DNA from: a phage
DNA: 64,000 bases
Direction: 5' to 3' (one strand)
Assembly: GCA_019326865.1 (NCBI GenBank)
Contig: GCA_019326865.1_4101.1
In this document: positions 11,517 to 43,613 of the stretch, one piece after another
Numbering within the stretch: position 1 is the first letter of the stretch
How the letters are laid out: every line of letters begins with the position of its first letter
Notes under the pieces: model-generated
The model's input: the letters and a program-made list of their open reading frames with translations, nothing else
Told to the model about the DNA's origin: nothing
Database searches by the model: none
Translations under genes and position numbers: made by a program

Positions 11517-11540
11517 AGACCCGTTATGGGTCTTTTTGTG
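11516..11540 (+). terminator. rho-independent terminator
   Basis: GACCC-GTTAT-GGGTC hairpin then TTTTTGTGTTT. Confidence 0.7.
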
Positions 11541-11548
11541 TTTATGGC

Positions 11549-11577
11549 TTTACAAGAGCATTCAGGTGTGTTATACT
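11549..11577 (+). promoter_or_regulatory. T4-early-like promoter (TTTACA-17-TGTTATACT)
   Basis: between terminator 11516-11540 and CDS 11593. Confidence 0.45.
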
Positions 11578-11592
11578 TGATTTCAAATAGAG

Positions 11593-23685: not shown

Positions 23686-24207
23686 ATGTCGAAGAAGGAT
23701 ACTTCGAATAAGCACTCAGTTCATTTCAGTACTGGAAAAGATAACTGGACAACCCCAAAAGATTTTTTTGAAGATTTAGATGAGTTATGGGGATTTACAC
23801 TTGATGCTGCTTGTGTAGATGAGACTGCATTGTGTGATAATTTTTTCACTCCAGAAGATGATTCACTGTCACAGGATTGGGGAAATAATATAGTTTGGTT
23901 GAATCCACCATATAGTGACTTAAAAACATGGTTATCTAAAGCTGTAGATGCATATAATAACGGAGCAACTGTAGTTATTCTTGTACCCTCAAGAACCGAT
24001 ACAATTGCTTTTCAGGATTATGCTGCTAAAATATGTGATTGTATTTGTTTTATTAAGGGAAGATTGCGATTTGGTATACCAGAAGAACCCGATAAGAAAA
24101 CTGATTCAGCACCATTTCCTTCGTGTCTGATAGTTCTGGATAAGTACTTAACCACTGCTAAAATCAATTGTCTTAAATCTCTCGGATTGGTGATGAAGAA
24201 TTTATGA
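23686..24207 (+). CDS. DNA methyltransferase, phage Dam-like (N6-adenine type by NPPY motif)
   Basis: 173 aa; catalytic 'WLNPPYSD' (D/N-P-P-Y/F) motif; size typical of small phage MTases. Confidence 0.7.
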   Translation: MSKKDTSNKHSVHFSTGKDNWTTPKDFFEDLDELWGFTLDAACVDETALCDNFFTPEDDSLSQDWGNNIVWLNPPYSDLKTWLSKAVDAYNNGATVVILVPSRTDTIAFQDYAAKICDCICFIKGRLRFGIPEEPDKKTDSAPFPSCLIVLDKYLTTAKINCLKSLGLVMKNL

Positions 24208-24737
24208 AAGAAACATGTATATTATCATTTATGAGATGTAACCCAGTCCACAATGGACATGGTTTAGTTTTTGAAAAGGCCAAAACATTACAAGAACAGT
24301 ACAATGCTGATTTAAAAATTTATCTAAGCACTAGTACTGACAATATAAAAAACCCACTACCACCTGAACTAAAAATGTATTATACAGAGGGATTCTATCC
24401 TTCAGTGCAAGAGAACATCTACACAGAGGACAATCTATTTGATATAATGAGAGAACTGGATGGAAAGTACTTAGATGTTCTCTTCATATGTGGTTCTGAC
24501 CGTATTGATTCTTTTCAGAAAACCCTTGACACTTACAATGGGAAGTTGTATAATTTTTGTAATATAAAAGTAATTCAAGCAGGTATTGACCGCCAATCAA
24601 GTCGATATAGCTCAACACAAATGCGTAAGTTTGCCAAAAATGAAGATTTTGATAGTTTTCGTGAGTTTTTGCCTGGAAATGACGAGAACTTAAAAATTCA
24701 ATTATTTGAAGATGTTATAAAATACATGAGGAAATAA
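24204..24737 (+). CDS. HIGH-motif nucleotidyltransferase (NMNAT/PPAT-like)
   Basis: 'SFMRCNPVHNGH' (HxGH) and 'SSTQMR' (ISSTxxR-like) motifs; ATGA overlap with MTase. Confidence 0.65.
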   Translation: MKETCILSFMRCNPVHNGHGLVFEKAKTLQEQYNADLKIYLSTSTDNIKNPLPPELKMYYTEGFYPSVQENIYTEDNLFDIMRELDGKYLDVLFICGSDRIDSFQKTLDTYNGKLYNFCNIKVIQAGIDRQSSRYSSTQMRKFAKNEDFDSFREFLPGNDENLKIQLFEDVIKYMRK

Positions 24738-24739
24738 TT

Positions 24740-25033
24740 ATGTCAGTACTGTTCAAAACTAATCCAGTACTTTGGGAACAAAATGAACAATCAGGATTTC
24801 GTTCCATCCATGTTGAATACAAAGGTAATACAGTAGTTGCAATTATTGCTAACAAAACTCTAGGAAAATGGACCGCACAGGTTGTTCCTATGGGCTATTC
24901 TTATACATCTGATGAGGTTCAATTTTTAGCTGAACTTTATCGTCAAGTTCCTTTTATTATTAATGTGTTAGAAGGCAATGATACATTATCACATGAAGAT
25001 GTGATTGATTTTCTTGGAAACTTACATGTGTGA
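24740..25033 (+). CDS. hypothetical protein
   Basis: 97 aa ORF. Confidence 0.5.
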   Translation: MSVLFKTNPVLWEQNEQSGFRSIHVEYKGNTVVAIIANKTLGKWTAQVVPMGYSYTSDEVQFLAELYRQVPFIINVLEGNDTLSHEDVIDFLGNLHV

Positions 25034-25946: not shown

Positions 25947-26222
25947 ATGAATTATAAATTTCTACAATATACATACACAATATTATTTGATTTACATCAC
26001 AATGGACGATATATCAACACAATACGAGAAAACACATTTACTCATATGTTATGGATTGATTACTTAGAAACGATTCGTGCATATTTTGTTAATACTGAGA
26101 TAATCATTCGTGGTAAAAAACAGAAGATTCAACATGTTAATAGTTATGGTGGTAAATTAACTCTAACATTTACCGATAATAATACTAATGAAATGTGTTG
26201 TATCGAGTTGGTGAACATATGA
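25947..26222 (+). CDS. hypothetical small protein, FamB
   Basis: 91 aa; 'KFLQYTYTILFDL' N-term and 'GGKLTLTFTDNN' C-term. Confidence 0.55.
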   Translation: MNYKFLQYTYTILFDLHHNGRYINTIRENTFTHMLWIDYLETIRAYFVNTEIIIRGKKQKIQHVNSYGGKLTLTFTDNNTNEMCCIELVNI

Positions 26223-26485
26223 ATTATAAAGATTTCCAATTAACATATAAGATTATTCGCAATCTAGCACACAGCAATAATAGCCCTAGTCTAGAAGACA
26301 CATGCACAGAAATGATCCATACGATTCGTGCAAAGATTGAAGAAAATTTCAGTACTGTTATTATTAATGATGACCATGCAGAATTTTCTGATATAATCAT
26401 TAGACGTGATGGTAAAGTTGAGGTTCAGTACTACACTGATTTTGGATTTACAAGTGTACCGTTGGAGATATTCCCTTGGGATTAA
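26195..26485 (+). CDS. hypothetical small protein, FamB
   Basis: 96 aa; 'DFQLTYKIIRNL', 'DGKVEVQYYTD'. Confidence 0.55.
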   Translation: MLYRVGEHMNYKDFQLTYKIIRNLAHSNNSPSLEDTCTEMIHTIRAKIEENFSTVIINDDHAEFSDIIIRRDGKVEVQYYTDFGFTSVPLEIFPWD

Positions 26486-26787
26486 ATTTAAATGATATAC
26501 AATTCACTTATAAGGTACTATATGATTTGTATGATGCATACCTTGTTAGTAACAAAATAGGTTCACATAACCCAACCAAAGAACAATCATTTATTGATTT
26601 ATATATTGAGTACTTAGATTCTATTGAAAACTATCTCAAAAAGAATTACAGTACTTTTATCGATGGAAATGATACATTCGATTTCTATGGTGTGCAATCA
26701 TATGATGGTATAATCCATGTTCAATTTCAGGAAAGAACCGATAGGGAATTTATCGAAATTAAAGTTGTGAAGTTGGTGAATTTATAA
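26476..26787 (+). CDS. hypothetical small protein, FamB
   Basis: TTG start after GGAG; 'DIQFTYKVLYDL'. Confidence 0.5.
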   Translation: MGLNLNDIQFTYKVLYDLYDAYLVSNKIGSHNPTKEQSFIDLYIEYLDSIENYLKKNYSTFIDGNDTFDFYGVQSYDGIIHVQFQERTDREFIEIKVVKLVNL

Positions 26788-26797
26788 GAGGTTACAT

Positions 26798-27109
26798 ATG
26801 TTATTAAATGATATACAATTTACATACAAATTTTTGTATATCCAATTCGCAACGGTTGATGCTGGTGAATATATCTACAGTGAAGTTTATCGTTCGATAT
26901 GGATAAAGTTTTTAGATGAATTACATGAATATTACCATGATTTGCGTATAGTTCGTAATAATAAAATATACAAATTCCGCGATATTGTTAGTCATAGCGG
27001 TAAGCTACGATTGGAATTAAGTACTGATAGTGATGTTGATTGGATTGGTGTAAATTTACTGGAGTTGGAGAATGAAAAGCAACTTAAAGGAAATACAAGT
27101 ATTTTATAA
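26798..27109 (+). CDS. hypothetical small protein, FamB
   Basis: 103 aa; 'DIQFTYKFLY', 'SGKLRLELSTDSD'. Confidence 0.55.
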   Translation: MLLNDIQFTYKFLYIQFATVDAGEYIYSEVYRSIWIKFLDELHEYYHDLRIVRNNKIYKFRDIVSHSGKLRLELSTDSDVDWIGVNLLELENEKQLKGNTSIL

Positions 27110-27356
27110 ATTCTTATACTTGTCATATGTTAAAGATGAGTACTATGAAAGTGTGTATTATTTTTTATGGCAACATTACCGTACTATAGTAAGAGATTTA
27201 TATCTAGGAAAATCTATCATATACAATGGTGAAAAATGTACATGTACGGATGTAGTTAGTTTTAATGGTTCTTTAACACTGTGTTTCAGATGCGATAATA
27301 ATAGTGGGTCATTTTCATTAAACGTATATCAGTTAGAAGGAATAAATTTTGAATAA
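27072..27356 (+). CDS. hypothetical small protein, FamB
   Basis: 94 aa; GGAG RBS; 'EIQVFYKFLYL', 'NGSLTLCFRCDNN'. Confidence 0.5.
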   Translation: MKSNLKEIQVFYKFLYLSYVKDEYYESVYYFLWQHYRTIVRDLYLGKSIIYNGEKCTCTDVVSFNGSLTLCFRCDNNSGSFSLNVYQLEGINFE

Positions 27357-29333: not shown

Positions 29334-29618
29334 ATGGATTTATACTCACATGCTTGGACATTCGAACAGTATATTTCATTATATAATGAAATTTACAATA
29401 CTGATATGTCATACTGCAATTATTTTCGCAATATGATCGATGAATATTCAAAGGAATTTAATAGTTTATACCTTTATGTTAATAAAGAAGTTACACATAA
29501 GACTATGAATAAAACAGGTACAATTGATGAAATTTCATTTGATTCCTATGGTGTGTATTTCTATATTACATTTTCTGATGATACTTTAGGTATACACACT
29601 TATAGTGAGTTAAAATAA
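29334..29618 (+). CDS. hypothetical small protein, FamB-like
   Basis: 94 aa; 'SYGVYFYITFSDD'; terminator downstream. Confidence 0.5.
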   Translation: MDLYSHAWTFEQYISLYNEIYNTDMSYCNYFRNMIDEYSKEFNSLYLYVNKEVTHKTMNKTGTIDEISFDSYGVYFYITFSDDTLGIHTYSELK

Positions 29619-29625
29619 AAATATA

Positions 29626-29650
29626 GGCCAGCGTTTGCTGGTCTTTTTTC
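29626..29650 (+). terminator. rho-independent terminator
   Basis: CCAGC-GTTT-GCTGG then TCTTTTTT. Confidence 0.65.
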
Positions 29651-29662
29651 GCAGGTACAAAG

Positions 29663-29965
29663 ATGATCAGTATAGATTTAATTGATAGTACTATAAAAAT
29701 GTTGGCTGATTTAGTGAGACAATCCAATGAAACTTTATACCAATCAATGTATAAAATGTTTGACCGATACATCAAGGATTGTAACATATCATTATATGGA
29801 CTTGCTGTTGATATAGACGATTACTATGGTATTAATACTTCATATGAAACAGGAATTTTAATTGGTATTAATATAAAGATGGGATATTATCCTTATTACT
29901 GTATAGGATTACCAGATAATACGTTGGTAGAATATCCAGCCAGTACTATTAAATTAAGAGGATAA
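29663..29965 (+). CDS. hypothetical protein
   Basis: 100 aa ORF. Confidence 0.5.
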   Translation: MISIDLIDSTIKMLADLVRQSNETLYQSMYKMFDRYIKDCNISLYGLAVDIDDYYGINTSYETGILIGINIKMGYYPYYCIGLPDNTLVEYPASTIKLRG

Positions 29966-29972
29966 AACTAAA

Positions 29973-30551
29973 ATGAATGTATTAGAATTAAGTACGAAGC
30001 TGATTAGTATGCGTAACGAGTGGTACGATTGGTTTTATAATGGTACTGATATGGATTTTTCAAAATATCCATTTATGGAATCAGGATGTGATTCAAGATA
30101 CCGCTGGTTGAGCAAAAGTGGTTCTGGTTTATTCATTCGTGTTGATGATAGTGGTCGAGGAATTATAAAAGATTTCATTCAAGTTGAAGAACTCGTCTAT
30201 GATAATTGGGGTGATAACGATCCATACCTTGGAAATATGATTTATGTAAGTGAAAATGATTGCATATTCGTTATCCAGCGTCATGGTGATTCTATGTTTT
30301 ATGTAGCGGACAACAATACACCTGACGGTGCAGCAGCCGATGGACTTATGCCTAAGATTGATATATTGGAATTTGGATTACCTGAGCATTTTCAGATTAG
30401 TACTTTATACGATATCCCACCACTTGAGTTCTTTGAAGAATTTAAATTATACTACAATGAACTTCAAAAATTGAGTACTGAACATCGAATTGAAATAACA
30501 GTCAAGTACATAGATGGGACAAAATTAACCGATACGGGGATAGAATTTTGA
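29973..30551 (+). CDS. hypothetical protein, FamA-like
   Basis: 192 aa; 'GLPEHFQISTLYDIPPLEFFEEF'. Confidence 0.55.
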   Translation: MNVLELSTKLISMRNEWYDWFYNGTDMDFSKYPFMESGCDSRYRWLSKSGSGLFIRVDDSGRGIIKDFIQVEELVYDNWGDNDPYLGNMIYVSENDCIFVIQRHGDSMFYVADNNTPDGAAADGLMPKIDILEFGLPEHFQISTLYDIPPLEFFEEFKLYYNELQKLSTEHRIEITVKYIDGTKLTDTGIEF

Positions 30552-31237
30552 TTAAAGATTTAGATAGAATTTTATATGTACTAAGGGGTGTAATTACATT
30601 ACATCCACACATCAATCGAATTGAAAGTACATTTCAGTTGGAGTCAAGAGAAACTCAATATTCACATATATCAAATGTAGTTGGCTCACTTAGTACTGAA
30701 GACTCGCCTTACGATATTTGTGTATGTGAAGTACAACCAAGTTCGGATCTTGGATTTGCTATTTTTGATAAAAATCAAAATCTCATTAGTATGTTTCAGT
30801 GCAATAATCCTTTTTGGAAAACATGCCTGTATCCAGAGTGGGCTATGCTTGATCCAACCAAGAGCACCATTAAAGTTTATGACTCTAAAAATGATGAAGT
30901 CGTTATTGATTTGGATGAGTCAATGTCCGAGGAAGAACACTTTCAGCTAATGATGATGCGTGCTATGCCTGAATACAATGCAATGATTAACACTGTGCAA
31001 TACATTAAGGATACCATGCCATCATTGCGTACACATGAGTTTTGTCATCCGGTATTGTATGAACATTTAGATTTAGATTTCAGTACTATTAAATTTAAAG
31101 ATAGTGTCATTGAGTATATCCAAGAGGTTACTAAATTCGATTTCATTAGTACAATGAATAATAACCCTGAAACAAATTTCAGACGACAATACAATGAATC
31201 TTTGTCTAATGGACGTGATACAAGTTGGTGGAAATAA
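30548..31237 (+). CDS. hypothetical protein, FamA-like
   Basis: 229 aa; 'SEEEHFQLMMMRAMPEY'; ATGA overlap. Confidence 0.55.
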   Translation: MIKDLDRILYVLRGVITLHPHINRIESTFQLESRETQYSHISNVVGSLSTEDSPYDICVCEVQPSSDLGFAIFDKNQNLISMFQCNNPFWKTCLYPEWAMLDPTKSTIKVYDSKNDEVVIDLDESMSEEEHFQLMMMRAMPEYNAMINTVQYIKDTMPSLRTHEFCHPVLYEHLDLDFSTIKFKDSVIEYIQEVTKFDFISTMNNNPETNFRRQYNESLSNGRDTSWWK

Positions 31238-31238
31238 T

Positions 31239-31502
31239 ATGAATATTCAAGATAGATTACAATTACTATACACTATTGAACAGGCTGCTTTTGAACTTGT
31301 TAATAAAATCTCCGAAGAACTTCCCAAAGGAACTATAGTTCGTGTACGTGAGAGGGATTATGAATCTGGAGAAATTGAAGAACTAGTACTGACCGTGAAT
31401 AAAGTAACATACTATGAATCTGAGTTGGCTATCCAATGTAGATCGGAAGATGGTAAAATATACTATTATGACACTGGTGTAGATATAGAGGTAATAAAAT
31501 GA
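31239..31502 (+). CDS. hypothetical small protein, FamC
   Basis: ATG 31239 (TAATATG junction); 'LPKGTIVRVRERD'. Confidence 0.5.
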   Translation: MNIQDRLQLLYTIEQAAFELVNKISEELPKGTIVRVRERDYESGEIEELVLTVNKVTYYESELAIQCRSEDGKIYYYDTGVDIEVIK

Positions 31503-32641
31503 CCCTTTTGCAAATATATGAAGATTTAATGCACTTGTGCAATACAAACGATGCGTTCTTTTATGTGGATCATAAAAGTCCTGCTGGTGGAACGTATCGT
31601 GTATTCAGTTATCGTCTAGCATCATATACTGATTTCATGCAACCCAATGCATTAGAAACCCGTGGATCTATGTGGGAAATTGATGAAGAAGGTAATATGA
31701 TTCGTTGTGCTGCTCGTACTATGAAAAAGTTCTTTAATGCTTACGAGAATCCTGCTACAATGTTCCCTGCTAACACCACATGCGATGACATTGCAGTAGT
31801 GATGCCTAAATTGGATGGTTCAGTGATCAGTACTTACCGTGACAATGATGGTGAGATTCGTTGTAAATCACATACTGCATTGTATTCTGACCATGCGATT
31901 AACAGTACTCGACTTATTAACGAGAACCAGAATCTATATCAGTACATCGATGAAGCTGAACGTTTAGGTTACACAGTTAATATGGAGTATACAAGCCCAG
32001 AGTACCGAATTGTATTACCGTATCAGGTAGAACAATTGTTTGTGCTGAACGTTCGTCATCGTGTAAGTGGTGAGTTGCTATGTGGTAAAGCATTACGTGA
32101 TAAGTTTCCATGTCTTTCACAGTACAGCACTAATATGACAGGAAAAGATATTCATCACACTTTTCCTGTGCGAAATTCATTCCGTGAAAGCGTTGATGAA
32201 GTTCATAAAATGCTTGACATTGAGGGTTTTGTTTGCATTTTAAAAGATGGGACAATGTGTAAAATAAAGACTGACTGGTACAGTTCATTACATCTTACAA
32301 AAGATAGTATTATTATTGATTCTCATTTATATGAAGCTGTATTAAATGGTTCAAGTGATGATTTAAAACAATTGTTCAGTTCTGACGAATATGCTATGCA
32401 AAAGATATTAAGAATGGAACAGTTGGTTTTTTCGTGCTATAATGCATTACAAGATGAAGTAGAAAGCTTCGTCAATGAACACAAGCACTTAGAGCGAAAG
32501 GAATTCGCATTGAAGGTTCAGACGTGCTTATCTAGTGAACTGAATCGTCAGGGCTTGGCATTTGCAATGTATAATAATAAGAAAGTTGATTACAAAGATA
32601 CACTTATCAAATACATGAAAATTATACTAAAAGATTTTTAG
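31499..32641 (+). CDS. rnlA: RNA ligase 1 (T4 RnlA-like)
   Basis: 380 aa; KxDG motif 'MPKLDGSVIS'; N-term 'FYVDHKSPAGGTYRVFSYRLASYTDF' parallels T4 Rnl1. Confidence 0.9.
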   Translation: MTLLQIYEDLMHLCNTNDAFFYVDHKSPAGGTYRVFSYRLASYTDFMQPNALETRGSMWEIDEEGNMIRCAARTMKKFFNAYENPATMFPANTTCDDIAVVMPKLDGSVISTYRDNDGEIRCKSHTALYSDHAINSTRLINENQNLYQYIDEAERLGYTVNMEYTSPEYRIVLPYQVEQLFVLNVRHRVSGELLCGKALRDKFPCLSQYSTNMTGKDIHHTFPVRNSFRESVDEVHKMLDIEGFVCILKDGTMCKIKTDWYSSLHLTKDSIIIDSHLYEAVLNGSSDDLKQLFSSDEYAMQKILRMEQLVFSCYNALQDEVESFVNEHKHLERKEFALKVQTCLSSELNRQGLAFAMYNNKKVDYKDTLIKYMKIILKDF

Positions 32642-32671
32642 TACTAACTAGCCTAAGCACAAGGAGAAGTG

Positions 32672-32926
32672 ATGGCTAAACCTAAGTATAAAAATGACGG
32701 TTCCCTTTCTCCAACTGAGTTCAGGAAAATACAACAAGAAATCGATGAATTACAGCACAAACGCTCAATGAAAGGTGTGAAGATAAGTAAGAAGAGAATC
32801 GAGAATACTTTCGGATGTAGTAGTACTGAATATAAGAAGAAAAGGAAACCGAAGGGTGTTAAGCCGAGAATACATGATGTAACTCGCTATACATCAAAAC
32901 GTGAAAATAAATTTGATCCACTATAA
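32672..32926 (+). CDS. small basic protein
   Basis: ATG 32672 after AAGGAG; Lys/Arg-rich 84 aa. Confidence 0.5.
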   Translation: MAKPKYKNDGSLSPTEFRKIQQEIDELQHKRSMKGVKISKKRIENTFGCSSTEYKKKRKPKGVKPRIHDVTRYTSKRENKFDPL

Positions 32927-32935
32927 GGAGTTCAT

Positions 32936-33166
32936 ATGAAAGTTGAAGTTCAGCATAGTATTGTTCAAGATATGTCTGTAGTTAAATTTCTTTCATTAAA
33001 AGATTACTTTAGATGTATCAAGTTCCTAGAAGAATCTCATTTAAAATGGACTCCATTAAAGTACAGTTCATCCAAAGACACTGCTAGTATTCGTTGTGAT
33101 GAAGCTGTACTCGTAAAAATCTCTAAAAGATTTGGGATAGGTAAAGTGAATGAGCACAGTAAATGA
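32936..33166 (+). CDS. hypothetical small protein
   Basis: 76 aa; AGGAG RBS. Confidence 0.45.
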   Translation: MKVEVQHSIVQDMSVVKFLSLKDYFRCIKFLEESHLKWTPLKYSSSKDTASIRCDEAVLVKISKRFGIGKVNEHSK

Positions 33167-33404
33167 ACTAAAATACTACAACAAAATTGCGGATACGTTT
33201 ATTACTCATTTATATGAAGAATTCAGTAGTATCCGCAAGGAATATACAGGTAAATGTATTTTATATAGTTCTTATCTTAGTGGAAGAATTGAACGTGCTT
33301 ACATTACTAAAGTGAAGTTTTCTGATGATTATCAATTACTATTTGAATTGGATGATTGTTTAGTCATTGAAGCTGATTTAATAGTAGATGTGCTGAACAA
33401 TTGA
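33150..33404 (+). CDS. hypothetical small protein, FamC
   Basis: 84 aa; 'KEYTGKCILYSS'. Confidence 0.45.
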   Translation: MSTVNELKYYNKIADTFITHLYEEFSSIRKEYTGKCILYSSYLSGRIERAYITKVKFSDDYQLLFELDDCLVIEADLIVDVLNN

Positions 33405-33410
33405 GGACAT

Positions 33411-33725
33411 ATGAATAAAGAACTTGCATATAAGGGTATCGAAAAGCTAAAGTTCGTTGAAAAGGAACTAATAGAATCAGTTGAAACAATGGTTGAAGAT
33501 TACGTTTTTGATTTTAAGAAAACATTAATTGGATGTAAAGTCAAATGCTGGGATCATACCATTAGAGAATGGTTCAGTGCTATAATTCTTGATGTTAAAG
33601 TATCTCGAACTGGTATTGGTAACTTAGTAAATGGTGAATGCTTTGTATACACTGAATACAATAACGGTACAAGACACCTTTCAAAAGGATGGCACAATCT
33701 CGAAGATGTAGAATTCATTGAGTAA
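33411..33725 (+). CDS. hypothetical small protein, FamC
   Basis: 104 aa; 'KKTLIGCKVKCWDH'. Confidence 0.5.
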   Translation: MNKELAYKGIEKLKFVEKELIESVETMVEDYVFDFKKTLIGCKVKCWDHTIREWFSAIILDVKVSRTGIGNLVNGECFVYTEYNNGTRHLSKGWHNLEDVEFIE

Positions 33726-33737
33726 CAAGGAGTAATA

Positions 33738-34670
33738 ATGCCAACTATCACCTTAACAATTGGGTTGCCTGGGTGTGGTAAAACTACATGGGCAGTGCAA
33801 GAGATTAAAAACGCCAAATCTAAGACTATCAACATCAACCGTGATGATATTCGTGAATCTATGGCGGGGTCACATGATGCTTACAAATTCAACGATGCTA
33901 ATGAGCAGTACGTAACTACTTTACAGTTCAGTGCAGCAAATTTAGCAGCAGAGAATGGTTGGAACATCATCATATCCGATACGAACCTTAAACAACATTT
34001 CCGTGATCTCTGGAAAGTATGGGCTAAAGATAATGATTATGATTACAAAGAAAAGAACTTCTATGATGATTTTGTACCTAATGAAGACCGTGGTGCAGAT
34101 GTTCATGAATTCTTTAAGATTAAAGAGTTCGTAAAACTTTGTAAGAAATATAACCGCCAGCGTGAGCGTTCAGTACAAGATAATATCATTGACACTATGG
34201 CAGATACTTACTATTATAGTAAAGCAATGCACATTGGTTACTATGGTAATTCAAGAGAAGCCGCTGTTATCGTTGATATTGACGGAACTCTTGCTCATAA
34301 ATGGGGTCGTAATCCTTACGATGAAAGTACTGTACTACAAGATACACCAGATGAAGAAGTTATTTTGTCTATTATCGCTGAAGCAGTTTTCCATAAACGT
34401 AAGATTATTGTAATGAGTGGGCGTACTGAAGGGTGTCGTGCAGACACAGAACAGTGGCTTAAGAATTGGGGTGTTCCTTACGATGCATTGTTTATGCGAG
34501 GCATCGATGATAAACGACCCGATGATGTGGTAAAATATGAGTTGTATATGAATAACGTCGTGCATCATTACGATGTTAAAAAAGTATACGATGACAGATC
34601 ACAAGTCGTATTCATGTGGCGTAAACTACTTGGATTAAAAGTGATGCAAGTTGCAGAAGGAAATTTCTGA
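33738..34670 (+). CDS. pseT: polynucleotide 5'-kinase/3'-phosphatase (T4 Pnk/PseT-like)
   Basis: 310 aa; Walker A 'GLPGCGKTT'; HAD motif 'VIVDIDGTLA'; terminator downstream. Confidence 0.9.
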   Translation: MPTITLTIGLPGCGKTTWAVQEIKNAKSKTININRDDIRESMAGSHDAYKFNDANEQYVTTLQFSAANLAAENGWNIIISDTNLKQHFRDLWKVWAKDNDYDYKEKNFYDDFVPNEDRGADVHEFFKIKEFVKLCKKYNRQRERSVQDNIIDTMADTYYYSKAMHIGYYGNSREAAVIVDIDGTLAHKWGRNPYDESTVLQDTPDEEVILSIIAEAVFHKRKIIVMSGRTEGCRADTEQWLKNWGVPYDALFMRGIDDKRPDDVVKYELYMNNVVHHYDVKKVYDDRSQVVFMWRKLLGLKVMQVAEGNF

Positions 34671-34677
34671 CACAAAA

Positions 34678-34705
34678 GGGATCAATGTATGATCCCTTTT
34701 TCTTT
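34678..34705 (+). terminator. rho-independent terminator
   Basis: GGGATC-AATGTAT-GATCCC then TTTTTCTTTT; follows pseT. Confidence 0.7.
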
Positions 34706-34719
34706 TAAGGTATATTATA

Positions 34720-34895
34720 ATGAATGTAAAAACACAGATGTTATTACAAAAAGAATACTTAGAAAATATAGAAATGTTCTATAGATTGTCTTTATACGAA
34801 AATAAACATAAAAAATATAACTTTTCTAAACAACTAACCACAAGTACTAATGATTATCTATTTTCATCAATGTTTTATGTGAGAGGTTTATTATA
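34720..34895 (+). CDS. possible small protein (58 aa)
   Basis: ORF below track cutoff; TAATG junction with next gene; weak RBS. Confidence 0.25.
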
Positions 34896-35153
34896 ATGGA
34901 TAAATTTCACACAGATATAACACAGATAGGTAATCTTATCAATAGTCTAATTACTGATTTAGAAGAAAAGTACTTAGGTCGAAATGTATACGTTGAAATG
35001 TATGAAACATATGGTGTTATTGATATGATTTATTACAGTGCATTGAAGTGTGAAATACGTTTAACAGTATGTTTGTTTGAAAAAGATACATTCAACAGAA
35101 GTACTGCAATTCGTCAGGTTGGTGTAGATGACATTGAATTATATGAGGAATAA
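34896..35153 (+). CDS. hypothetical small protein, FamC
   Basis: 85 aa; 'EEKYLGRNVYVEMYE'. Confidence 0.5.
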   Translation: MDKFHTDITQIGNLINSLITDLEEKYLGRNVYVEMYETYGVIDMIYYSALKCEIRLTVCLFEKDTFNRSTAIRQVGVDDIELYEE

Positions 35154-35407
35154 TGATGTTTGAACAGGACGTAGAGCTATTCAAAAGACATATTGAATAT
35201 TTGACTGTTTTAGAGAATGATTTAACCACAAAATACAAAGGAATTAGAGTCCAGTGTTGGTATGATGACTGGGATTATAAAAGGGAACTTACTATTGACC
35301 GAATTTATTTCAGTGATGGTGTACTGAATGTACATGGTGTAAATGATTTTGGTCATTCATATACATATTCTAATAATGCTAAATTTAAAAGGATCTGCAA
35401 TGAATGA
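35153..35407 (+). CDS. hypothetical small protein, FamC
   Basis: 84 aa; 'TTKYKGIRVQCWYD'. Confidence 0.5.
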   Translation: MMFEQDVELFKRHIEYLTVLENDLTTKYKGIRVQCWYDDWDYKRELTIDRIYFSDGVLNVHGVNDFGHSYTYSNNAKFKRICNE

Positions 35408-35702
35408 ATATTATCATAATTTATTCGATTACATAAAACTAATAGATGATCTTTCTTTTGAATTTCTCAGTACTGAAAAAGTTGATGAACCTCTCTATTA
35501 TGATTGTATTAGTTCACTGTGTTTAGATGAAAAAGAGATATTAGCAAATAACTTACCATCCACGGTCTGTGTAATCAATGGTTCCAAGGCTGTGGTGTCT
35601 GAGGTTAATTTTCATAAATCACTTAATACAATTGTTTACAAGTTCGATAACACTTGGTTTAATCACGTAACTAGTAATATTAAATCTGTGAGATTTTTAT
35701 GA
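35400..35702 (+). CDS. hypothetical protein
   Basis: ATG 35400 after AAGGA; 100 aa. Confidence 0.45.
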   Translation: MNEYYHNLFDYIKLIDDLSFEFLSTEKVDEPLYYDCISSLCLDEKEILANNLPSTVCVINGSKAVVSEVNFHKSLNTIVYKFDNTWFNHVTSNIKSVRFL

Positions 35703-35995
35703 ATATAAAAAAATTATTTGAACAAGTAAATTTATTGTACTGGTGTTCAGACGGCTCAGATAAGGAATATAGTGAAGTTTATTTAGAACTATTTAGAACT
35801 GAAATACATCTAATTCGAAGATACCTAATTGATAACAAAACTGAAGTAAAAGTTAGATACCATAATGGTACTTTAAAGAATGGTATAATTATTGGATTGA
35901 TAGTTACACGAATGTCCAGTAATATTAAAGTTGCAGTAAGATTAATGACTGATGATGGTGTCTACACAATAGAAGCTAATGAGATTATATATTAA
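35699..35995 (+). CDS. hypothetical small protein, FamC
   Basis: 98 aa; 'RRYLIDNKTEVKVRYHNGT'; ATGA overlap. Confidence 0.5.
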   Translation: MNIKKLFEQVNLLYWCSDGSDKEYSEVYLELFRTEIHLIRRYLIDNKTEVKVRYHNGTLKNGIIIGLIVTRMSSNIKVAVRLMTDDGVYTIEANEIIY

Positions 35996-36301
35996 ATGGA
36001 TATACAAACATTCAATAAACTAAAGTACTATGATAATGGTTTTGTATTAATAATTAACGAACTTGATAGTATACCATACGAATATCATAATCAAGTAATG
36101 AATATAGTAAAAAATATATGTGAAGAACTAAAAAGTATATTTAAAAATGAATATGTTTATGATTTAGGTAATAATAGAACAAAACTATACATAAAGAAAT
36201 TCTGGGGAACACATTGTGGTTTGATGGTCGATTTGGGTTTAAGTTTAGACAATAATTTCGAATCATGTTCATTATATTTGGACGAAATGAGAATCTCATG
36301 A
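35996..36301 (+). CDS. hypothetical protein
   Basis: 101 aa ORF. Confidence 0.5.
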   Translation: MDIQTFNKLKYYDNGFVLIINELDSIPYEYHNQVMNIVKNICEELKSIFKNEYVYDLGNNRTKLYIKKFWGTHCGLMVDLGLSLDNNFESCSLYLDEMRIS

Positions 36302-36318
36302 GACATAAGGACATTCGG

Positions 36319-36327
36319 TGATATAAT
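36319..36327 (+). promoter_or_regulatory. extended -10 element TGATATAAT
   Basis: 32 nt upstream of CDS 36359; no clear -35. Confidence 0.35.
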
Positions 36328-36358
36328 TTGATTATATCATTAATAAGGAGAGGTTGAA

Positions 36359-36685
36359 GTGAATGGGTCGTTTTTAGAAATACTAGAAAAGACAACTGGG
36401 ATGCTTTCAAGTTCACTAATGCACATTTTCAGTACTAGTAATTTTTACGATTCGCGTGTGTTAGATGTAATTTGTAATAGCTATGTTGAATGTGTGTCTA
36501 ATACAATATGTCCATTTAACGCTTATTCAAATGATGGTGTTGAAAAGTTTATTATATCCAAGATTCAATGTGGTTTTGGTGATTGGATAGTTCTATGTGA
36601 ACGTAGTGGTGTGTCTTTATACATCGAAGAAATTGGAAAATTTATATACAAAGGAGTAGAATATGTTAGTCCCAATTATTATTAG
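36359..36685 (+). CDS. hypothetical protein
   Basis: GTG start after AAGGAGAGG; 108 aa. Confidence 0.5.
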   Translation: MNGSFLEILEKTTGMLSSSLMHIFSTSNFYDSRVLDVICNSYVECVSNTICPFNAYSNDGVEKFIISKIQCGFGDWIVLCERSGVSLYIEEIGKFIYKGVEYVSPNYY

Positions 36686-37641: not shown

Positions 37642-37857
37642 ATGATAACATTTTTCGCAATATATGGATTTGTGGTATTTGTCACATTTATAACCAACTT
37701 TTTAGTACTTAATTGGGGTTGTTTTAAAGATGAAATCATGATTGCCATGAATCTCCAAACAGCCGCACTAATGGCTATTATTTGGCCTGTAACGTTAGTA
37801 TACCTTTTTATTTCACTTACTCAAGATATTATTAACAAATATAAGAGAAAGAACTAA
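37642..37857 (+). CDS. small membrane protein
   Basis: 71 aa, two hydrophobic helices. Confidence 0.45.
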   Translation: MITFFAIYGFVVFVTFITNFLVLNWGCFKDEIMIAMNLQTAALMAIIWPVTLVYLFISLTQDIINKYKRKN

Positions 37858-38114
37858 TGTTCAAAACCGACTTATCACATTTTCGATATCTTAGGTCTTT
37901 GGCTGATGATTTTATAAATGATCTTAAGCCAAAATATATTGGTCAAGAAGTACGATTAATAAACTCCAGAGGGTATGGAAAGTATATTATATCGGATATG
38001 TATATTAGTGCAGGTGAGTGGCGTTTTAAAATTAACACTTATCTTAAAGATGGTTCTTTTGCTGGAACACAAGTTACTAAACATACTAATATTATATGGT
38101 TGGAGCAACAATGA
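37857..38114 (+). CDS. hypothetical small protein, FamC
   Basis: 85 aa; 'KPKYIGQEVRLIN'. Confidence 0.5.
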   Translation: MFKTDLSHFRYLRSLADDFINDLKPKYIGQEVRLINSRGYGKYIISDMYISAGEWRFKINTYLKDGSFAGTQVTKHTNIIWLEQQ

Positions 38115-38854
38115 AACACTTTTTAGAAGTAACCGTGCCTGATGATAAAGATTTATATATTGTAGGTGATTTGCATGGTAATGGTAAACTATGGGATGCT
38201 ACAGTAAAAGAATTTGGTATTACACACAATGATTATGTTTTCAGTGTAGGTGATGTTATCGACCGTGGAGAACAAAATTCAAAGCTCCTATTTGAATTTT
38301 TGTTCGGAGAAAATCGTTACATGATTGCTGGAAATCATGAGATGATGTGTGTTGATTCAGAAACACTTCGAGATTGGTATCATTGTTGGATAAGTAATGG
38401 CGGTGATAAATTCCTTGATGAAGTTGGGGGAACAGGCATTCAATTCTTTCGTCAGTACTTGAAAGATTTACCTATGATTATCCAAATCAACCATAGAGGC
38501 TTGAAGATCGGGTTAGTTCATGCTGGAGTTCCTTTGGAATATACAACATGGGAACGATTTGTTAATGGGACAAAATCACTTAGTGCTGATATAGTTGATA
38601 AGTGCTTGTGGGATAGGAAAACATTCGATTATTGTAGAACAAATAATACCTATTATGCACCTAAGTTAGATGGTGTGCATTGTGTCTTTAGTGGACATAC
38701 TGCCGTTACTGATCCACTCATTTATGGTAATCGCATTTGGATTGATAGTCAGTTCTTGACGGGTGACTTAACTCTCGCTACTCCACAAAGTGGTGGGATG
38801 AGATACTTACGTAAAGAAAAAGATGAGTACTCATTCAGTCGTTTCAAAAGGTAA
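38111..38854 (+). CDS. PPP-family Ser/Thr protein phosphatase-like metallophosphoesterase
   Basis: 'GDLHGN', 'GDVIDRG', 'GNHE' signature; ATG 38111 after GGAG. Confidence 0.8.
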   Translation: MKHFLEVTVPDDKDLYIVGDLHGNGKLWDATVKEFGITHNDYVFSVGDVIDRGEQNSKLLFEFLFGENRYMIAGNHEMMCVDSETLRDWYHCWISNGGDKFLDEVGGTGIQFFRQYLKDLPMIIQINHRGLKIGLVHAGVPLEYTTWERFVNGTKSLSADIVDKCLWDRKTFDYCRTNNTYYAPKLDGVHCVFSGHTAVTDPLIYGNRIWIDSQFLTGDLTLATPQSGGMRYLRKEKDEYSFSRFKR

Positions 38855-40987: not shown

Positions 40988-42406
40988 ATGAGCATTTTAG
41001 CAATTCTTGAAAGCATTAAAAATACTAGCAGTACTCTGGGTAAAAAAGCTATCCTTGAACAAAACAAAGATAACCAAACATTACAAAAAGTACTGAAATA
41101 TACACTAGATCCTTCAATTGTAAGTGGGTATAAAAAGCTACCACAAGCTGATGATGTATACCAACATATGACATTAGATGAAGCAATTGATAAGCTAGAA
41201 TGCATTTACAAACGTGGTGTAACCGGAAATGCTGGACGTGACTTCATTGCTTCAGTACTGGGTTCTGTATCTGAAGATGATCAGGAAGTTCTACGAAGAA
41301 TGCTCACTAAGAACCTTGATTGTGGTATTCAAGAAAAGAACTGCAATGATGTGTTCGGGAAAGGTTTTATCAAAGACGAACCATACATGCGTTGTTCTTT
41401 GATTGACAAAAAGACTGCAAAGAACATTAACTTCAAAGATTATGGTTATGCTATATCAGAAGTGAAAATGGATGGTCAGTACTTGAACCACGTTGTCATT
41501 AATGGTTCATTAACTTCTACATCCCGTAATGGTAAACTATACGACTTCCTGGGTTGTCGTGATGGTGAGATGGCAGGTCTTGCTCACATCATCCAAAGTA
41601 AAGATGAACGTTTTAGTAGTGGTGTAGTCTTTATGGGTGAAGGTGTAGTACTGGACAATGATGGAGAAACCATTCTCCCACGCACTACTGGCAATGGTAT
41701 AATTCAGAAAGCTGGAAAAGATAGTATCAGTCAGAATGAAGCAATGCGTACTGTATTTGTTCTATGGGATGTTGTTCCATATGATGCATTTTGTGAAGGT
41801 GTATGGGATGTAAAACGTAAAGAACGTCGCGAGATCTTAGTAGATGCAATTAACGAACTCAGTAGTGATTTTGTTCGTATGGTTGGATTCCGTAAAGTTC
41901 TAAACATCAAAGAAGCATTTGAGTACAATAGTGAACTAATGAACGAAGGTGAAGAGGGTTCAGTACTGAAATGTGAAGATGGTATCTGGAAATCTCACAC
42001 TTCTCCTAAGCAATTGAAAATGAAACTCAAAATGCAACTGGACTTGCGTATTGTTGGTTTCAATGAAGGTGAAGGTAAGCGTAAAGGTAGCCTTGGTTCT
42101 TTACAACTGGAAAGTGCGTGTGGTACATTGAAAGTTAATGTAGGTACAGGTATCCGTGAAAAAGATGCCGAATGGACATTTAAAACTATCTGGGAAAGAA
42201 TGCAAGAACTTATTGGTAAAGTGGTTACAGTTGAGTGTAATGACATTGTATTCGATAAGCGTACTGGTGAACCATCACTATTTTTACCTGTATTTATTGA
42301 ATTTAGATTTGACAAAAACACTTGCGACGATTATACTCGTATCTTAGAAATTCGTGATAGTGCAGTTGAAGTGTTTTCAAACAGTATTATTGAAGCATTA
42401 GGTTAA
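40988..42406 (+). CDS. lig: ATP-dependent DNA ligase (T4 gp30-like)
   Basis: 472 aa; KxDG adenylation motif 'EVKMDGQY'; N-term 'GKKAILEQNKDNQTLQKV' parallels T4 ligase. Confidence 0.9.
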   Translation: MSILAILESIKNTSSTLGKKAILEQNKDNQTLQKVLKYTLDPSIVSGYKKLPQADDVYQHMTLDEAIDKLECIYKRGVTGNAGRDFIASVLGSVSEDDQEVLRRMLTKNLDCGIQEKNCNDVFGKGFIKDEPYMRCSLIDKKTAKNINFKDYGYAISEVKMDGQYLNHVVINGSLTSTSRNGKLYDFLGCRDGEMAGLAHIIQSKDERFSSGVVFMGEGVVLDNDGETILPRTTGNGIIQKAGKDSISQNEAMRTVFVLWDVVPYDAFCEGVWDVKRKERREILVDAINELSSDFVRMVGFRKVLNIKEAFEYNSELMNEGEEGSVLKCEDGIWKSHTSPKQLKMKLKMQLDLRIVGFNEGEGKRKGSLGSLQLESACGTLKVNVGTGIREKDAEWTFKTIWERMQELIGKVVTVECNDIVFDKRTGEPSLFLPVFIEFRFDKNTCDDYTRILEIRDSAVEVFSNSIIEALG

Positions 42407-42425
42407 CCATTTATTGGAGGTAATT

Positions 42426-43217
42426 ATGAAATTTGTCGTAACATCTGATGTACACGGTAGCACTGATTACCTTCATAGTGGGGATTACAGCGATACAGTA
42501 CTGTTCATTGCTGGAGACTTCGATGAAGTTAAACGCAGTCGTTACCGTACTGGTATCGAATCACTATGTAAGCAGTTCAAAAATGTAGTGCTGGTTCCTG
42601 GCAATCACGAATACTATGGTTCTAATATCCACAAAACGCATAAAGTTCTGTCTGACATGCAAGATGAGATTCCCAATTTCATCTTTTTGCAAAACAAATT
42701 TGTATGGCTGGATGGGGTACTTCTTGTTGGTAGTACTCTGTGGACAGACTTCGATAAAGGTAACTCTTTGACTAAGTTTGATGCTCGTCAGAAGATGAAT
42801 GATTATAAACATATCCGTCATGGAACAACATCCGAGCCTTGGCGTAAGAAGTTGACACCAGATGATACGGAGTTCATGCATTATAAAGATAAACAATTTA
42901 TTAAAAATTCTATTGACACGGCTCGCTTTATGCATGATAATGATTTCAAGGTAATTGTGATTACACATCACGCACCAAGTTATCAAAGTGTTTCACCAAA
43001 ATATAAAAATGATTCCCTGAATGGCTGTTACTGTTCAGATATGGATCAGTACATTGAAGATTTGGGTGCTGATATTTGGATTCATGGTCATGTTCATAGT
43101 AGCTTTGACTACCACATTGGTAAGACACGTATCATTTGTAATCCACGAGGCTATGAATCGTACAGTGGTGCTTGTGAAAATTTTGATTACAATCCTAAAT
43201 TAGTATTTGAAATTTAA
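42426..43217 (+). CDS. calcineurin-like metallophosphoesterase
   Basis: 'SDVHGS', 'GDFDE', 'GNHEYYG' motifs; ATG after GGAGG. Confidence 0.75.
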   Translation: MKFVVTSDVHGSTDYLHSGDYSDTVLFIAGDFDEVKRSRYRTGIESLCKQFKNVVLVPGNHEYYGSNIHKTHKVLSDMQDEIPNFIFLQNKFVWLDGVLLVGSTLWTDFDKGNSLTKFDARQKMNDYKHIRHGTTSEPWRKKLTPDDTEFMHYKDKQFIKNSIDTARFMHDNDFKVIVITHHAPSYQSVSPKYKNDSLNGCYCSDMDQYIEDLGADIWIHGHVHSSFDYHIGKTRIICNPRGYESYSGACENFDYNPKLVFEI

Positions 43218-43229
43218 TAAGAGGATATT

Positions 43230-43613
43230 GTGTCATTAATTTATTTTGAACTACCAGAATATACCAATTATCCAAGCCGAGTTATTTGCTCAATATATAG
43301 TAATGCATATCATCACTTGTTATTGAATAGTAATAAAGCTGTGCATTATTATCGAGATAAAGAACCAATTATATTAAAGAATCGTTATGGATTTAACTCA
43401 ACTGATCCTGAAGTTAAACTCTGTGATTTATCAGGGGAAGTGTTGGTTGTGATGAAATGTGATACTAATCTTTTCCATACATACAAACTTAATCAGTACT
43501 TTATGGAAACACTTTCTATACGTTCACATTCTCCGATGATTAAAGTTGATTTGAATGATGTTGAAGATAAATTGAAATACGATTTTATTAACTCAATTGT
43601 GTATTTGGAGTAA
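43230..43613 (+). CDS. hypothetical protein
   Basis: GTG start after AGAGGA; 127 aa. Confidence 0.5.
   Translation: MSLIYFELPEYTNYPSRVICSIYSNAYHHLLLNSNKAVHYYRDKEPIILKNRYGFNSTDPEVKLCDLSGEVLVVMKCDTNLFHTYKLNQYFMETLSIRSHSPMIKVDLNDVEDKLKYDFINSIVYLE

What the first reader, a model, noticed from the sequence alone, without database searches (positions are those of the whole stretch)
31499..34670. RnlA plus Pnk tRNA-repair pair
RNA ligase 1 and polynucleotide kinase/phosphatase are both present, 1.1 kb apart. In T4 these two enzymes repair tRNA cleaved by the host anticodon nuclease PrrC. Their presence implies this phage meets anticodon-nuclease defences, and the small genes between them (basic protein 32672-32926 and FamC members) are candidates for accessory roles.
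Basis: established knowledge. Interest (0 to 1): 0.4.

Follow-up and report, generated by a model that had tools for sequence, protein, structure and literature searches.

The report
Known phage tRNA-repair gene cassette
This jumbo E. coli phage carries the same RNA ligase and RNA end-healing kinase/phosphatase that phage T4 uses to mend tRNA cut by host defences. The pair is already annotated and published for this phage group, so it is ordinary; the only new detail is that small unknown proteins always travel with the two enzymes.

Summary
ORF 31499-32641 is a T4-type RNA ligase 1, with both the adenylyltransferase domain and the tRNA-specificity C-domain. ORF 33738-34670 is a T4-type polynucleotide kinase/3'-phosphatase. 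They lie 1096 nt apart on the same strand and a hairpin terminator follows. Nearly all catalytic residues known from T4 are kept.

The window is an Asteriusvirus jumbo coliphage, 97.5% identical to UE-S1. GenBank already annotates both genes there, and the RaK2 paper of 2013 called the orthologues tRNA-repair proteins. The pair is therefore already known. That it counters anticodon nucleases is inferred by homology and has not been tested.

The "accessory genes" idea is partly supported:
- The basic protein s1 (32672-32926) directly follows rnlA in every related locus I examined. These include contigs whose ligase is only 38-49% identical.
- s2 (32936-33166) is 63-73% identical across genera, more conserved than either enzyme, and usually overlaps the pnk start.
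- Almost none of the other 14 neighbouring genes tested is retained outside the genus.
- s3 and s4 are variable fillers: s3 is absent and s4 only 37% identical in PBECO4.
- No sequence-level "FamC" paralogy was found.

s1 and s2 are clade-restricted ORFans with no assignable function.

The parts
31499..32641 (+). rnlA: T4-type RNA ligase 1 (380 aa), made of an adenylyltransferase domain and the C-terminal tRNA-specificity domain
   Evidence: Pfam PF09511 and PF20819; PHROG 562 at 7e-108; TIGR02308 equivalog above cutoff; PDB 2c5u at 5.7e-58. It is 37% identical to T4 Rnl1. K104 (motif I), D106, G107, E163, E242, G243, K255, K257, R55, K77, F78, Y261 and D287 are all kept. T4 K119 is His here and in every clade member aligned.
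32672..32926 (+). s1: conserved basic 84-aa protein of unknown function that always directly follows rnlA
   Evidence: pI 10.2; PHROG 15306, function unknown. It is 98.8% identical in PBECO4 and 57-62% identical in other genera. Relatives at 39-48% identity still lie between an Rnl1 and a Pnkp. AF2 model: helix 14-45, helix 51-58 and a basic tail, pLDDT 79.5, pTM 0.46. No Pfam, NCBIfam or PDB match.
32936..33166 (+). s2: conserved basic 76-aa protein of unknown function, with a beta-beta-alpha-beta-beta-alpha fold
33150..33404 (+). s3: variable 84-aa acidic ORF, a filler gene
   Evidence: No PHROG or Pfam match. Absent from PBECO4-type genomes and from all other genera.
33411..33725 (+). s4: 104-aa ORF in a hypervariable slot just upstream of pnk
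   Evidence: PHROG 31355. The gene at this position in PBECO4 (gp126) is only 37% identical, while the flanking DNA is more than 92% identical. Not found outside the genus.
33738..34670 (+). pnk (pseT-like): bifunctional 5'-kinase / 3'-phosphatase (310 aa), with an N-terminal P-loop kinase and a C-terminal DxDxT HAD phosphatase
   Evidence: Pfam AAA_33 and HAD_PNKP at 3.5e-44; PHROG 505 at 2.4e-94; PDB 1ltq at 7.8e-38 and Pnkp1 4xrp at 1.4e-30. Kinase residues kept: P-loop GLPGCGKT (K15, T16), D36, R39, E56, D81. Phosphatase residues kept: D180xD182GT, R191, R229, D262, D286. The lid Arg (T4 R126) is displaced by one residue to R142, which is invariant in the clade.
34674..34710 (+). intrinsic-terminator-like hairpin (11-bp stem) followed by a T tract, closing the unit after pnk
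   Evidence: The same site is annotated as a terminator in UE-S1, and an equivalent one follows the kinase gene in phage Munch.
29625..29644 (+). upstream terminator-like hairpin; genes from 29663 to 34670 are tightly packed between the two hairpins
   Evidence: annotated as a terminator in UE-S1. ORF spacing.

Best explanation
This is the T4-type RNA break-repair cassette of a RaK2-like jumbo coliphage (genus Asteriusvirus).

Proposed mechanism. [quoted passage not shown] Pnk heals both ends: its C-terminal DxDxT phosphatase domain removes the 2',3'-cyclic or 3' phosphate, and its N-terminal P-loop kinase domain adds a 5' phosphate. Rnl1 then seals the break through a lysyl-AMP intermediate on K104. 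Its helical C-domain directs it to tRNA anticodon loops.

Gene organisation. The two genes lie on the same strand in a tightly packed gene run that ends at a terminator just after pnk. In this phage clade the cassette also always carries a basic helical protein (s1), and usually a small alpha/beta protein (s2) and a third small protein (x, absent here).

Shown: enzyme identities, domain order, conservation of catalytic residues, gene order, and conservation of s1 and s2.

Inferred: enzymatic activity, tRNA as the substrate, anticodon nucleases as the selective pressure, co-transcription, and any role of s1 or s2.
For: Profile and structure-sequence matches for both enzymes.

All T4-essential residues are invariant in the clade alignment. 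The residue lists are taken from PMC2831316 for the Pnkp kinase and from PMC6379707 for Rnl1 R54 and K75. PMC6379707 also gives the C-domain as the tRNA anticodon-loop specificity determinant.

T4 has the same layout, rnlA then four small genes then pseT, on one strand.

The cassette is conserved in 36 Asteriusvirus records, 16 viral-contig loci and 3 distant contigs. Terminator-like hairpins bracket the unit.

The closest relative has no tRNA-Lys among its 8 tRNAs (PMC12805682), so it cannot bypass cleavage of tRNA-Lys with its own copy.

The same interpretation is published for RaK2 gp464 and gp470 (PMC3622015) and for jumbo phages in general (PMC7824862, section 3.4.9).
Against: There is no experimental evidence for any phage of this clade.

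Two T4 positions differ. Rnl1 K119 is His. I recall K119 as functionally important in T4 but could not confirm that in the searchable literature. The Pnkp lid Arg126 column is not Arg; an invariant Arg sits one residue later.

The host nuclease is unknown. No tRNA or known RNA family lies in the window. T4 Rnl1 also has a second, non-catalytic role in tail-fibre attachment, which cannot be excluded here.
Confidence: 0.8

Rival explanations
1. The cassette is a broad-spectrum RNA repair system, not one aimed at PrrC/RloC anticodon nucleases. It would mend any RNA (tRNA, rRNA or mRNA) cut by metal-independent RNases that leave cyclic-phosphate / 5'-OH ends. Examples are HEPN toxins, type III CRISPR or Cas13 collateral RNases, and colicin-like tRNases.
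For: The chemistry of the two enzymes depends on the type of RNA end, not on the nuclease that made it (established knowledge; PMC7824862 section 3.4.9). The clade infects many genera, including Escherichia, Klebsiella, Erwinia, Yersinia, Serratia and Xanthomonas, which are unlikely to share a single anticodon nuclease.
Against: The Rnl1 C-domain that confers tRNA anticodon-loop specificity in T4 is present and scores above the Pfam cutoff (PMC6379707).
Confidence: 0.3
2. The small proteins s1 and s2 have nothing to do with RNA repair. They are conserved 'backbone' genes of this phage clade, and their position between rnlA and pnk simply reflects inherited gene order.
For: Other backbone genes (Dam methylase, metallophosphoesterase, DNA ligase) also keep their order around the cassette in a distant contig. 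s2 is missing from two distant contigs, and x is missing from Asteriusvirus and RaK2, with the enzyme pair intact. Stop/start overlaps are common throughout these genomes. No domain or fold ties s1 or s2 to RNA.
Against: Of 18 genes tested around the cassette, only Rnl1, s1, s2 and Pnk are consistently retained outside the genus; the others give at most isolated 26-31% matches. s1 is adjacent to rnlA in every locus examined, even where Rnl1 is only 38% identical. s2 is more conserved than either enzyme. Both small proteins are basic (pI 10.2 and 9.4) while both enzymes are acidic.
Confidence: 0.55
3. The main role of Rnl1 here is morphogenetic, as a gp63-like catalyst of tail-fibre attachment. 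Pnk would serve nucleotide or DNA-end metabolism, and RNA repair would be marginal.
For: T4 gp63 has both functions (T4 annotation; PHROG 562 name). A DNA ligase and a metallophosphoesterase lie a few kb downstream.
Against: All ligase catalytic residues are invariant across the clade, which would not be needed for a non-catalytic assembly role. The tight linkage to pnk matches the repair pathway. The gene lies among small early-type ORFs, and no structural gene is annotated in the flanks examined.
Confidence: 0.1

Closest known systems
Phage T4 Rnl1 (gp63, rnlA) plus Pnkp (pseT): the tRNA-Lys repair pathway that counters the PrrC anticodon nuclease
   Same: Same two domain architectures and the same catalytic residues. 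Same strand and order, with rnlA upstream and four small genes in between: a 1.43 kb gap in T4 against 1.10 kb here.
   Different: Only 37% (Rnl1) and 42% (Pnk) identity over aligned residues. T4 Rnl1 K119 is His here. The kinase lid Arg is shifted by one residue, and the region between the kinase core and the lid is longer, so that HMMER splits the alignment at query residues 108/131. The intervening genes are not homologous: alc, pseT.3, pseT.2 and pseT.1 against s1-s4. No activity or host nuclease is known for this phage.
Orthologues already annotated in the RaK2-like jumbo phages: RaK2 gp464/gp470, 121Q 438/443, PBECO4 gp129/gp125, UE-S1_389/394
   Same: Direct orthologues. Protein identity is 94-96% in PBECO4 and 121Q, and the locus is 97.5% identical in DNA to UE-S1. 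Protein identity is 54-64% in other genera. RaK2 and UE-S1 carry equivalent annotations, and the RaK2 paper proposes a tRNA-repair role (PMC3622015).
   Different: Nothing substantive for the enzymes. The set of small genes between them differs: s1-s2-s3-s4 here; s1-s2-gp126 in PBECO4; s1-x-s2 in most other genera; a truncated s1, then s2, then three other genes in RaK2.
Bacterial Pnkp1-Rnl-Hen1 (and Pnkp-Hen1) RNA repair complexes
   Same: They heal and seal ribotoxin-cut RNA. The HAD-type Pnkp1 is a full-length sequence relative of the window Pnk (4xrp, 1.4e-30). They set a precedent for extra protein subunits assembling with the kinase/phosphatase and the ligase (PMC4411300).
   Different: No Hen1 methyltransferase is present here. 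s1 and s2 are unrelated small ORFans, and no complex has been demonstrated.

Membership tests
Rnl1 family (T4 RNA ligase 1) | Covalent nucleotidyltransferase core with motif I lysine (KxDG) and motifs III, IV and V | tested here: met
   K104-L-D106-G107, E163, E242-G243 and K255/K257 align to T4 K99, D101, G102, E159, E227, G228, K240 and K242, and are invariant in 9 clade and T4 sequences.
Rnl1 family (T4 RNA ligase 1) | Rnl1-type N-terminal sub-domain supplying Arg54, Lys75 and Phe76 for ATP gamma-phosphate and adenine contacts (PMC6379707) | tested here: met
   R55, K77 and F78 are conserved.
Rnl1 family (T4 RNA ligase 1) | All-helical C-terminal domain specific to Rnl1, the tRNA anticodon-loop specificity determinant | tested here: met
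   Pfam PF20819 T4_Rnl1_C at 6.1e-17, 62.5 bits against a cutoff of 27, residues 268-379. The full-length NCBIfam equivalog TIGR02308 is above its cutoff.
Rnl1 family (T4 RNA ligase 1) | ATP-dependent sealing of 3'-OH / 5'-phosphate RNA ends | not testable with these tools
   Needs biochemistry.
T4-type Pnkp (bifunctional polynucleotide kinase/phosphatase) | N-terminal P-loop kinase with the essential residues K15, S16, D35, R38, D85 and R126 (PMC2831316) | tested here: met
   K15, T16, D36, R39 and D81 are kept, as is E56 (T4 E57). The R126 column is Q141, but the next residue, R142, is Arg in all 10 clade sequences aligned. I therefore count the lid Arg as present but shifted by one position; this last point is an inference.
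T4-type Pnkp (bifunctional polynucleotide kinase/phosphatase) | C-terminal DxDxT acylphosphatase (HAD) domain with the D165 nucleophile, D167, R176, R213, D254 and D278 | tested here: met
   D180, D182, R191, R229, D262 and D286 are invariant. Pfam HAD_PNKP at 3.5e-44.
T4-type Pnkp (bifunctional polynucleotide kinase/phosphatase) | Homotetrameric quaternary structure and 2',3'-cyclic phosphate healing activity | not testable with these tools
   No multimer prediction or assay was available.
T4-type anti-anticodon-nuclease tRNA repair pathway | Both the healing and the sealing enzyme are encoded by the phage and linked | tested here: met
   Same strand, 1096 nt apart, with a terminator after pnk. 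The linkage is conserved across the clade.
T4-type anti-anticodon-nuclease tRNA repair pathway | A host anticodon nuclease (PrrC/RloC type) whose damage the pair reverses, with mutants restricted on such hosts | not testable with these tools
   Needs genetics. No host information is in the window.

The most novel reading that the evidence does not exclude
In RaK2-like jumbo phages the RNA repair unit would be a multi-protein cassette, rnlA-s1-(x)-(s2)-pnk, not a two-enzyme pair. Under this reading the clade-specific basic proteins are dedicated subunits or regulators. s1 is universal and helical; s2 has 21 invariant columns, many of them polar. They might recruit the tRNA substrate, bridge ligase and kinase/phosphatase in the way Hen1 does in bacterial complexes, or directly inhibit the host anticodon nuclease.
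Probability: 0.25. Interest if true: 0.5.

Novelty: already known. Interest (0 to 1): 0.2.

Why it matters
The enzyme pair adds nothing new. It is annotated in GenBank for near-identical phages and was discussed in print in 2013 and 2021.

It is useful mainly as a marker that this phage clade invests in countering RNA-cutting defences. That is relevant when choosing therapeutic jumbo coliphages for hosts that carry tRNA-targeting systems.

The modest added value is the conserved small-protein content of the cassette. If s1 and s2 prove to be partners of Rnl1 and Pnkp, they would be the first phage-encoded accessory factors for this classic repair pathway, and cheap to test.

Tried and rejected
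1. 'FamC' paralogy. All-vs-all BLASTP of 137 plus-strand ORFs (E<=1e-3) and phmmer --max gave no link from s1-s4 to any other ORF; the best E-values were about 0.1. PHROGs also places the small genes in separate families. Rejected at sequence level; shared fold was not tested.

2. Homology of s1-s4 to the T4 intervening genes alc, pseT.3, pseT.2 and pseT.1, or to cd.4/cd.5. No significant BLASTP hit.

3. Whether gene x of other genera equals s3 or s4. hhalign probability is below 1%. There is only a weak hint for window ORF 35996-36301: hmmsearch E 0.0011, hhalign probability 10%. Not accepted.

5. Function of s1. No Pfam, NCBIfam or PDB hit. The model is non-globular, so no fold search was attempted.

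6. A remote search for s2 outside the clade (full HMMER scan) found only 3 genuine clusters. The other 6 hits are multi-stretch matches in long proteins, which I judge to be compositional.

7. tRNA genes and Rfam families in the window: none.

8. A literature check of whether T4 Rnl1 Lys119 is essential found nothing in the searchable library. That point rests on my memory and is flagged as such.

9. The sigma-70 promoter scan gave no enrichment over shuffles: 48 found against 46.9 expected. No promoter is claimed.
Full report
**Observation**

The two large ORFs lie exactly where the finding says: 31499-32641 (+, 380 aa) and 33738-34670 (+, 310 aa).

The first ORF is an RNA ligase 1.
- Pfam RNA_lig_T4_1 (1.1e-14) and T4_Rnl1_C (6.1e-17), both above gathering score.
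- PHROG 562, 'RNA ligase and tail fiber protein attachment catalyst' (7e-108).
- NCBIfam equivalog TIGR02308 'T4 RnlA family RNA ligase' (297.7 bits, cutoff 242.25).
- The solved T4 Rnl1 structures (2c5u, 5.7e-58).

The second ORF is a polynucleotide kinase/phosphatase.
- Pfam AAA_33 plus HAD_PNKP (3.5e-44).
- PHROG 505, 'polynucleotide kinase' (2.4e-94).
- T4 Pnkp (1ltq, 7.8e-38) and the bacterial Pnkp1 (4xrp, 1.4e-30).

The two genes are 1096 nt apart on the same strand.

**What genome this is**

The region is 97.5% identical to Escherichia phage UE-S1 and 88-93% identical to 121Q, PBECO4, G17, phAPEC6 and about 30 other records. All are roughly 350-kb jumbo phages of genus Asteriusvirus.

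UE-S1 already annotates UES1_389 as 'RnlA family RNA ligase' and UES1_394 as '3'-phosphatase, 5'-polynucleotide kinase'. The RaK2 genome paper names the orthologues gp464 and gp470 as 'two RNA repair proteins' and suggests a tRNA repair pathway (PMC3622015). A comparative survey of jumbo phages reviews Rnl1, Rnl2 and RtcB ligases together with PNK-HAD healing enzymes as counter-measures to tRNA-cutting defences (PMC7824862, section 3.4.9). The pair and its interpretation are therefore already known.

**Are the enzymes likely active?**

I aligned both proteins to T4 and to eight to ten clade members.

- **Rnl1.** Every residue I could source as essential is invariant: the motif I lysine (K104 = T4 K99), D106, G107, E163, E242, G243, K255 and K257. 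The N-subdomain residues R55, K77 and F78 are also kept. T4 R54 and K75 are essential, and F76 contacts adenine (PMC6379707).
- **Pnk kinase.** The essential T4 residues are K15, S16, D35, R38, D85 and R126 (PMC2831316). Here they are K15, T16, D36, R39 and D81, so five of the six are kept.
- **Pnk phosphatase.** D180xD182GT, R191, R229, D262 and D286 are all kept.

There are two small departures.
- The column of T4 R126 is not Arg in this clade, but the next residue (R142) is Arg in all ten clade sequences. I read this as a one-residue shift of the lid arginine; that is an inference.
- T4 Rnl1 K119 is an invariant His in this clade. I recall K119 as functionally important in T4 but could not confirm it in the searchable literature.

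The Rnl1 C-domain is present. In T4 it is responsible for specificity toward anticodon-loop breaks (PMC6379707).

**Gene organisation**

Genes from 29663 to 34670 are tightly packed on the plus strand. Within the cassette, junctions range from a 30-nt gap to a 17-nt overlap. Two terminator-like hairpins bracket the run, at 29625-29644 and 34674-34700. Seven such sites were found in the 8-kb scan against 2.2 expected. UE-S1 annotates both as terminators, and phage Munch has one directly after its kinase gene. Promoter-like matches are not enriched, so I claim no promoter.

T4 has essentially the same layout: rnlA, then alc, pseT.3, pseT.2 and pseT.1, then pseT, on one strand with a 1.43-kb gap. 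The T4 intervening proteins show no similarity to the four small proteins here.

**The small genes between the enzymes**

Four ORFs fill the gap.

| ORF | Coordinates | Length | pI |
|---|---|---|---|
| s1 | 32672-32926 | 84 aa | 10.2 |
| s2 | 32936-33166 | 76 aa | 9.4 |
| s3 | 33150-33404 | 84 aa | 4.7 |
| s4 | 33411-33725 | 104 aa | 5.4 |

The four ORFs behave very differently.

- **Within the genus.** Compared with PBECO4, s1 is 98.8% identical and s2 is 90% identical, against 96% for Rnl1 and 95% for Pnk. s3 is absent, and the s4 slot holds a 37%-identical allele although the flanking DNA is more than 92% identical. Of the 25 Asteriusvirus records listed, 11 have the window's s3+s4 arrangement and 14 match in two pieces like PBECO4.
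- **Across genera.** tblastn finds s1 in 62 phage records and s2 in 71, all of them RaK2-like jumbo phages of Escherichia, Salmonella, Klebsiella, Cronobacter, Erwinia, Yersinia, Serratia, Pectobacterium and Xanthomonas.
- **Retention test.** I tested 18 window genes (29334-36685) against 15 loci from other genera, each with 6 kb of flank on both sides. Four genes are found in essentially every locus, always in the same order: Rnl1 (54-63%), s1 (57-62%, below the tblastn threshold in RaK2), s2 (63-70%) and Pnk (54-64%). The other 14 give at most isolated 26-31% matches (up2, up3, dn1).
- **Layout in other genera.** In most genera the cassette is rnlA-s1-x-s2-pnk with overlapping stops and starts. 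x is a conserved 74-76-aa protein.
- **Most divergent s1 relatives.** At 39-48% identity, with Rnl1 at only 38-49%, s1 still sits directly after an Rnl1 and before a Pnkp. One contig keeps the full five-gene set, and two keep rnlA-s1-x-pnk without s2.

In summary, s1 is universal. In RaK2 it is truncated to a 57-aa ORF with a marginal match (32% identity over 37 aa, E 2.6e-4). x and s2 are usual but dispensable. s3 and s4 are genus-level fillers.

**What are s1 and s2?**

Neither has a Pfam, NCBIfam or PDB sequence match.

- **s2.** It models confidently (pLDDT 85.9) as a beta-beta-alpha-beta-beta-alpha two-layer sandwich. Its best structural neighbours are generic ACT/ferredoxin-like and BMC domains at Z no higher than 7.0. 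Among viral models only the RaK2 orthologue is significant. A full HMMER scan of 1.84 billion representatives recovers only three genuine clusters. Many of its 21 invariant columns are polar (H7, S8, Q11, D12, K17, Y43, S44, S45, S51, R53, E56). That suggests a binding or catalytic surface but does not identify it.
- **s1.** It models as one long helix (14-45), a short helix (51-58) and a basic tail (pLDDT 79.5, pTM 0.46). This is the look of a partner-binding or nucleic-acid-binding peptide, not a globular enzyme.

Both small proteins are basic while both enzymes are acidic.

**How strong is the accessory-role case?**

I regard a functional link to the repair enzymes as plausible but unproven, at about 0.25-0.3. 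The counter-argument is that other backbone genes also keep their order in these collinear genomes. A distant contig shows Dam, then rnlA...pnk, then a metallophosphoesterase, then DNA ligase. In addition, s2 and x can each be lost without loss of the enzymes.

**'FamC'**

I found no sequence support for a paralogous family that includes the genes between rnlA and pnk.
- All-vs-all BLASTP of 137 plus-strand ORFs recovers several real paralog families elsewhere in the window but none involving s1-s4.
- Permissive phmmer gives best E-values of about 0.1.
- PHROGs, which is built by remote-homology clustering, puts the small genes in separate families.
- x is not s3 or s4.

**Mechanism and rivals**

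[quoted passage not shown] It would act as a counter-defence (confidence about 0.8 for repair in general).

That the relevant nucleases are PrrC or RloC-type is only the T4 precedent. The wide host range of the clade argues that the pair may serve against several RNase defences. UE-S1 carries eight tRNAs (Gly, Ser, Arg, undetermined, Ser, Met, Asn, Thr) but no tRNA-Lys (PMC12805682). So this phage type cannot replace cleaved tRNA-Lys with its own copy, which fits a need for repair.

A purely morphogenetic gp63-like role for Rnl1 is unlikely, because the catalytic residues are invariant.

**Verdict**

The finding is real, correctly identified and ordinary: an already annotated and published tRNA/RNA repair pair. 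The extra result is a conserved cassette in which s1, and usually s2, is locked between the two enzymes. That offers an inexpensive experimental lead but does not change the classification.

Noticed in passing
window 28-13317 (+): A tandem array of 16 paralogous ORFs of about 90-190 aa, linked by BLASTP at E<=1e-3. Two members tested fall in PHROGs 9317 and 12674, both of unknown function.
   Followed up: partly
window 25947-27356 (+): Five tandem paralogous small ORFs of about 90-103 aa. The one member tested matches PHROG 21004, function unknown.
   Followed up: partly
window 47451-47946 and 47741-49150: A 264-nt tandem repeat (1.9 copies, 75% match) lies in the most GC-rich part of the window. 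Five mutually similar short plus-strand ORFs in the same area are probably artefacts of repetitive coding sequence in another frame or strand, not genes.
   Followed up: partly
window 38096-38854 (+): A calcineurin-like metallophosphoesterase (Pfam Metallophos 2.7e-11; PHROG 246, NinI-like Ser/Thr phosphatase) lies 3.4 kb downstream of pnk. It has a weak match (1e-6) to the phosphoesterase part of a PHROG named 'RNA ligase'. A Metallophos-domain gene also lies one gene downstream of pnk in distant contig L026. It could be a second RNA end-healing enzyme or an ordinary protein phosphatase.
   Followed up: partly
window 33411-33725 (s4 slot); L003 2651-2962: The slot just upstream of pnk is hypervariable within the genus. 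PBECO4 gp126 is only 37% identical to s4 while the flanking DNA is more than 92% identical, which suggests allelic replacement by recombination.
   Followed up: partly
window 35996-36301 (+): This 101-aa ORF gives a weak match to gene x, which sits between s1 and s2 in other genera (hmmsearch E 0.0011 among 137 ORFs; hhalign probability only 10%). It may be a displaced, diverged x or it may be chance.
   Followed up: yes
window about 23700-24750, 40988-42409 and 42421-43491 (coordinates mapped from UE-S1): The backbone genes around the cassette are a Dam-type N6-adenine methyltransferase, an ORF annotated as 'putative cytidylyltransferase' with no Pfam support, an ATP-dependent DNA ligase, and a CapR-domain protein. 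The order Dam, rnlA..pnk, Metallophos, DNA ligase is kept in distant contig L026 with far fewer small ORFs in between.
   Followed up: partly
window 34896-35153 and 37857-38114 (+); 14235-14816 and 14878-15429 (+): Two further pairs of paralogous ORFs of unknown function.
   Followed up: no
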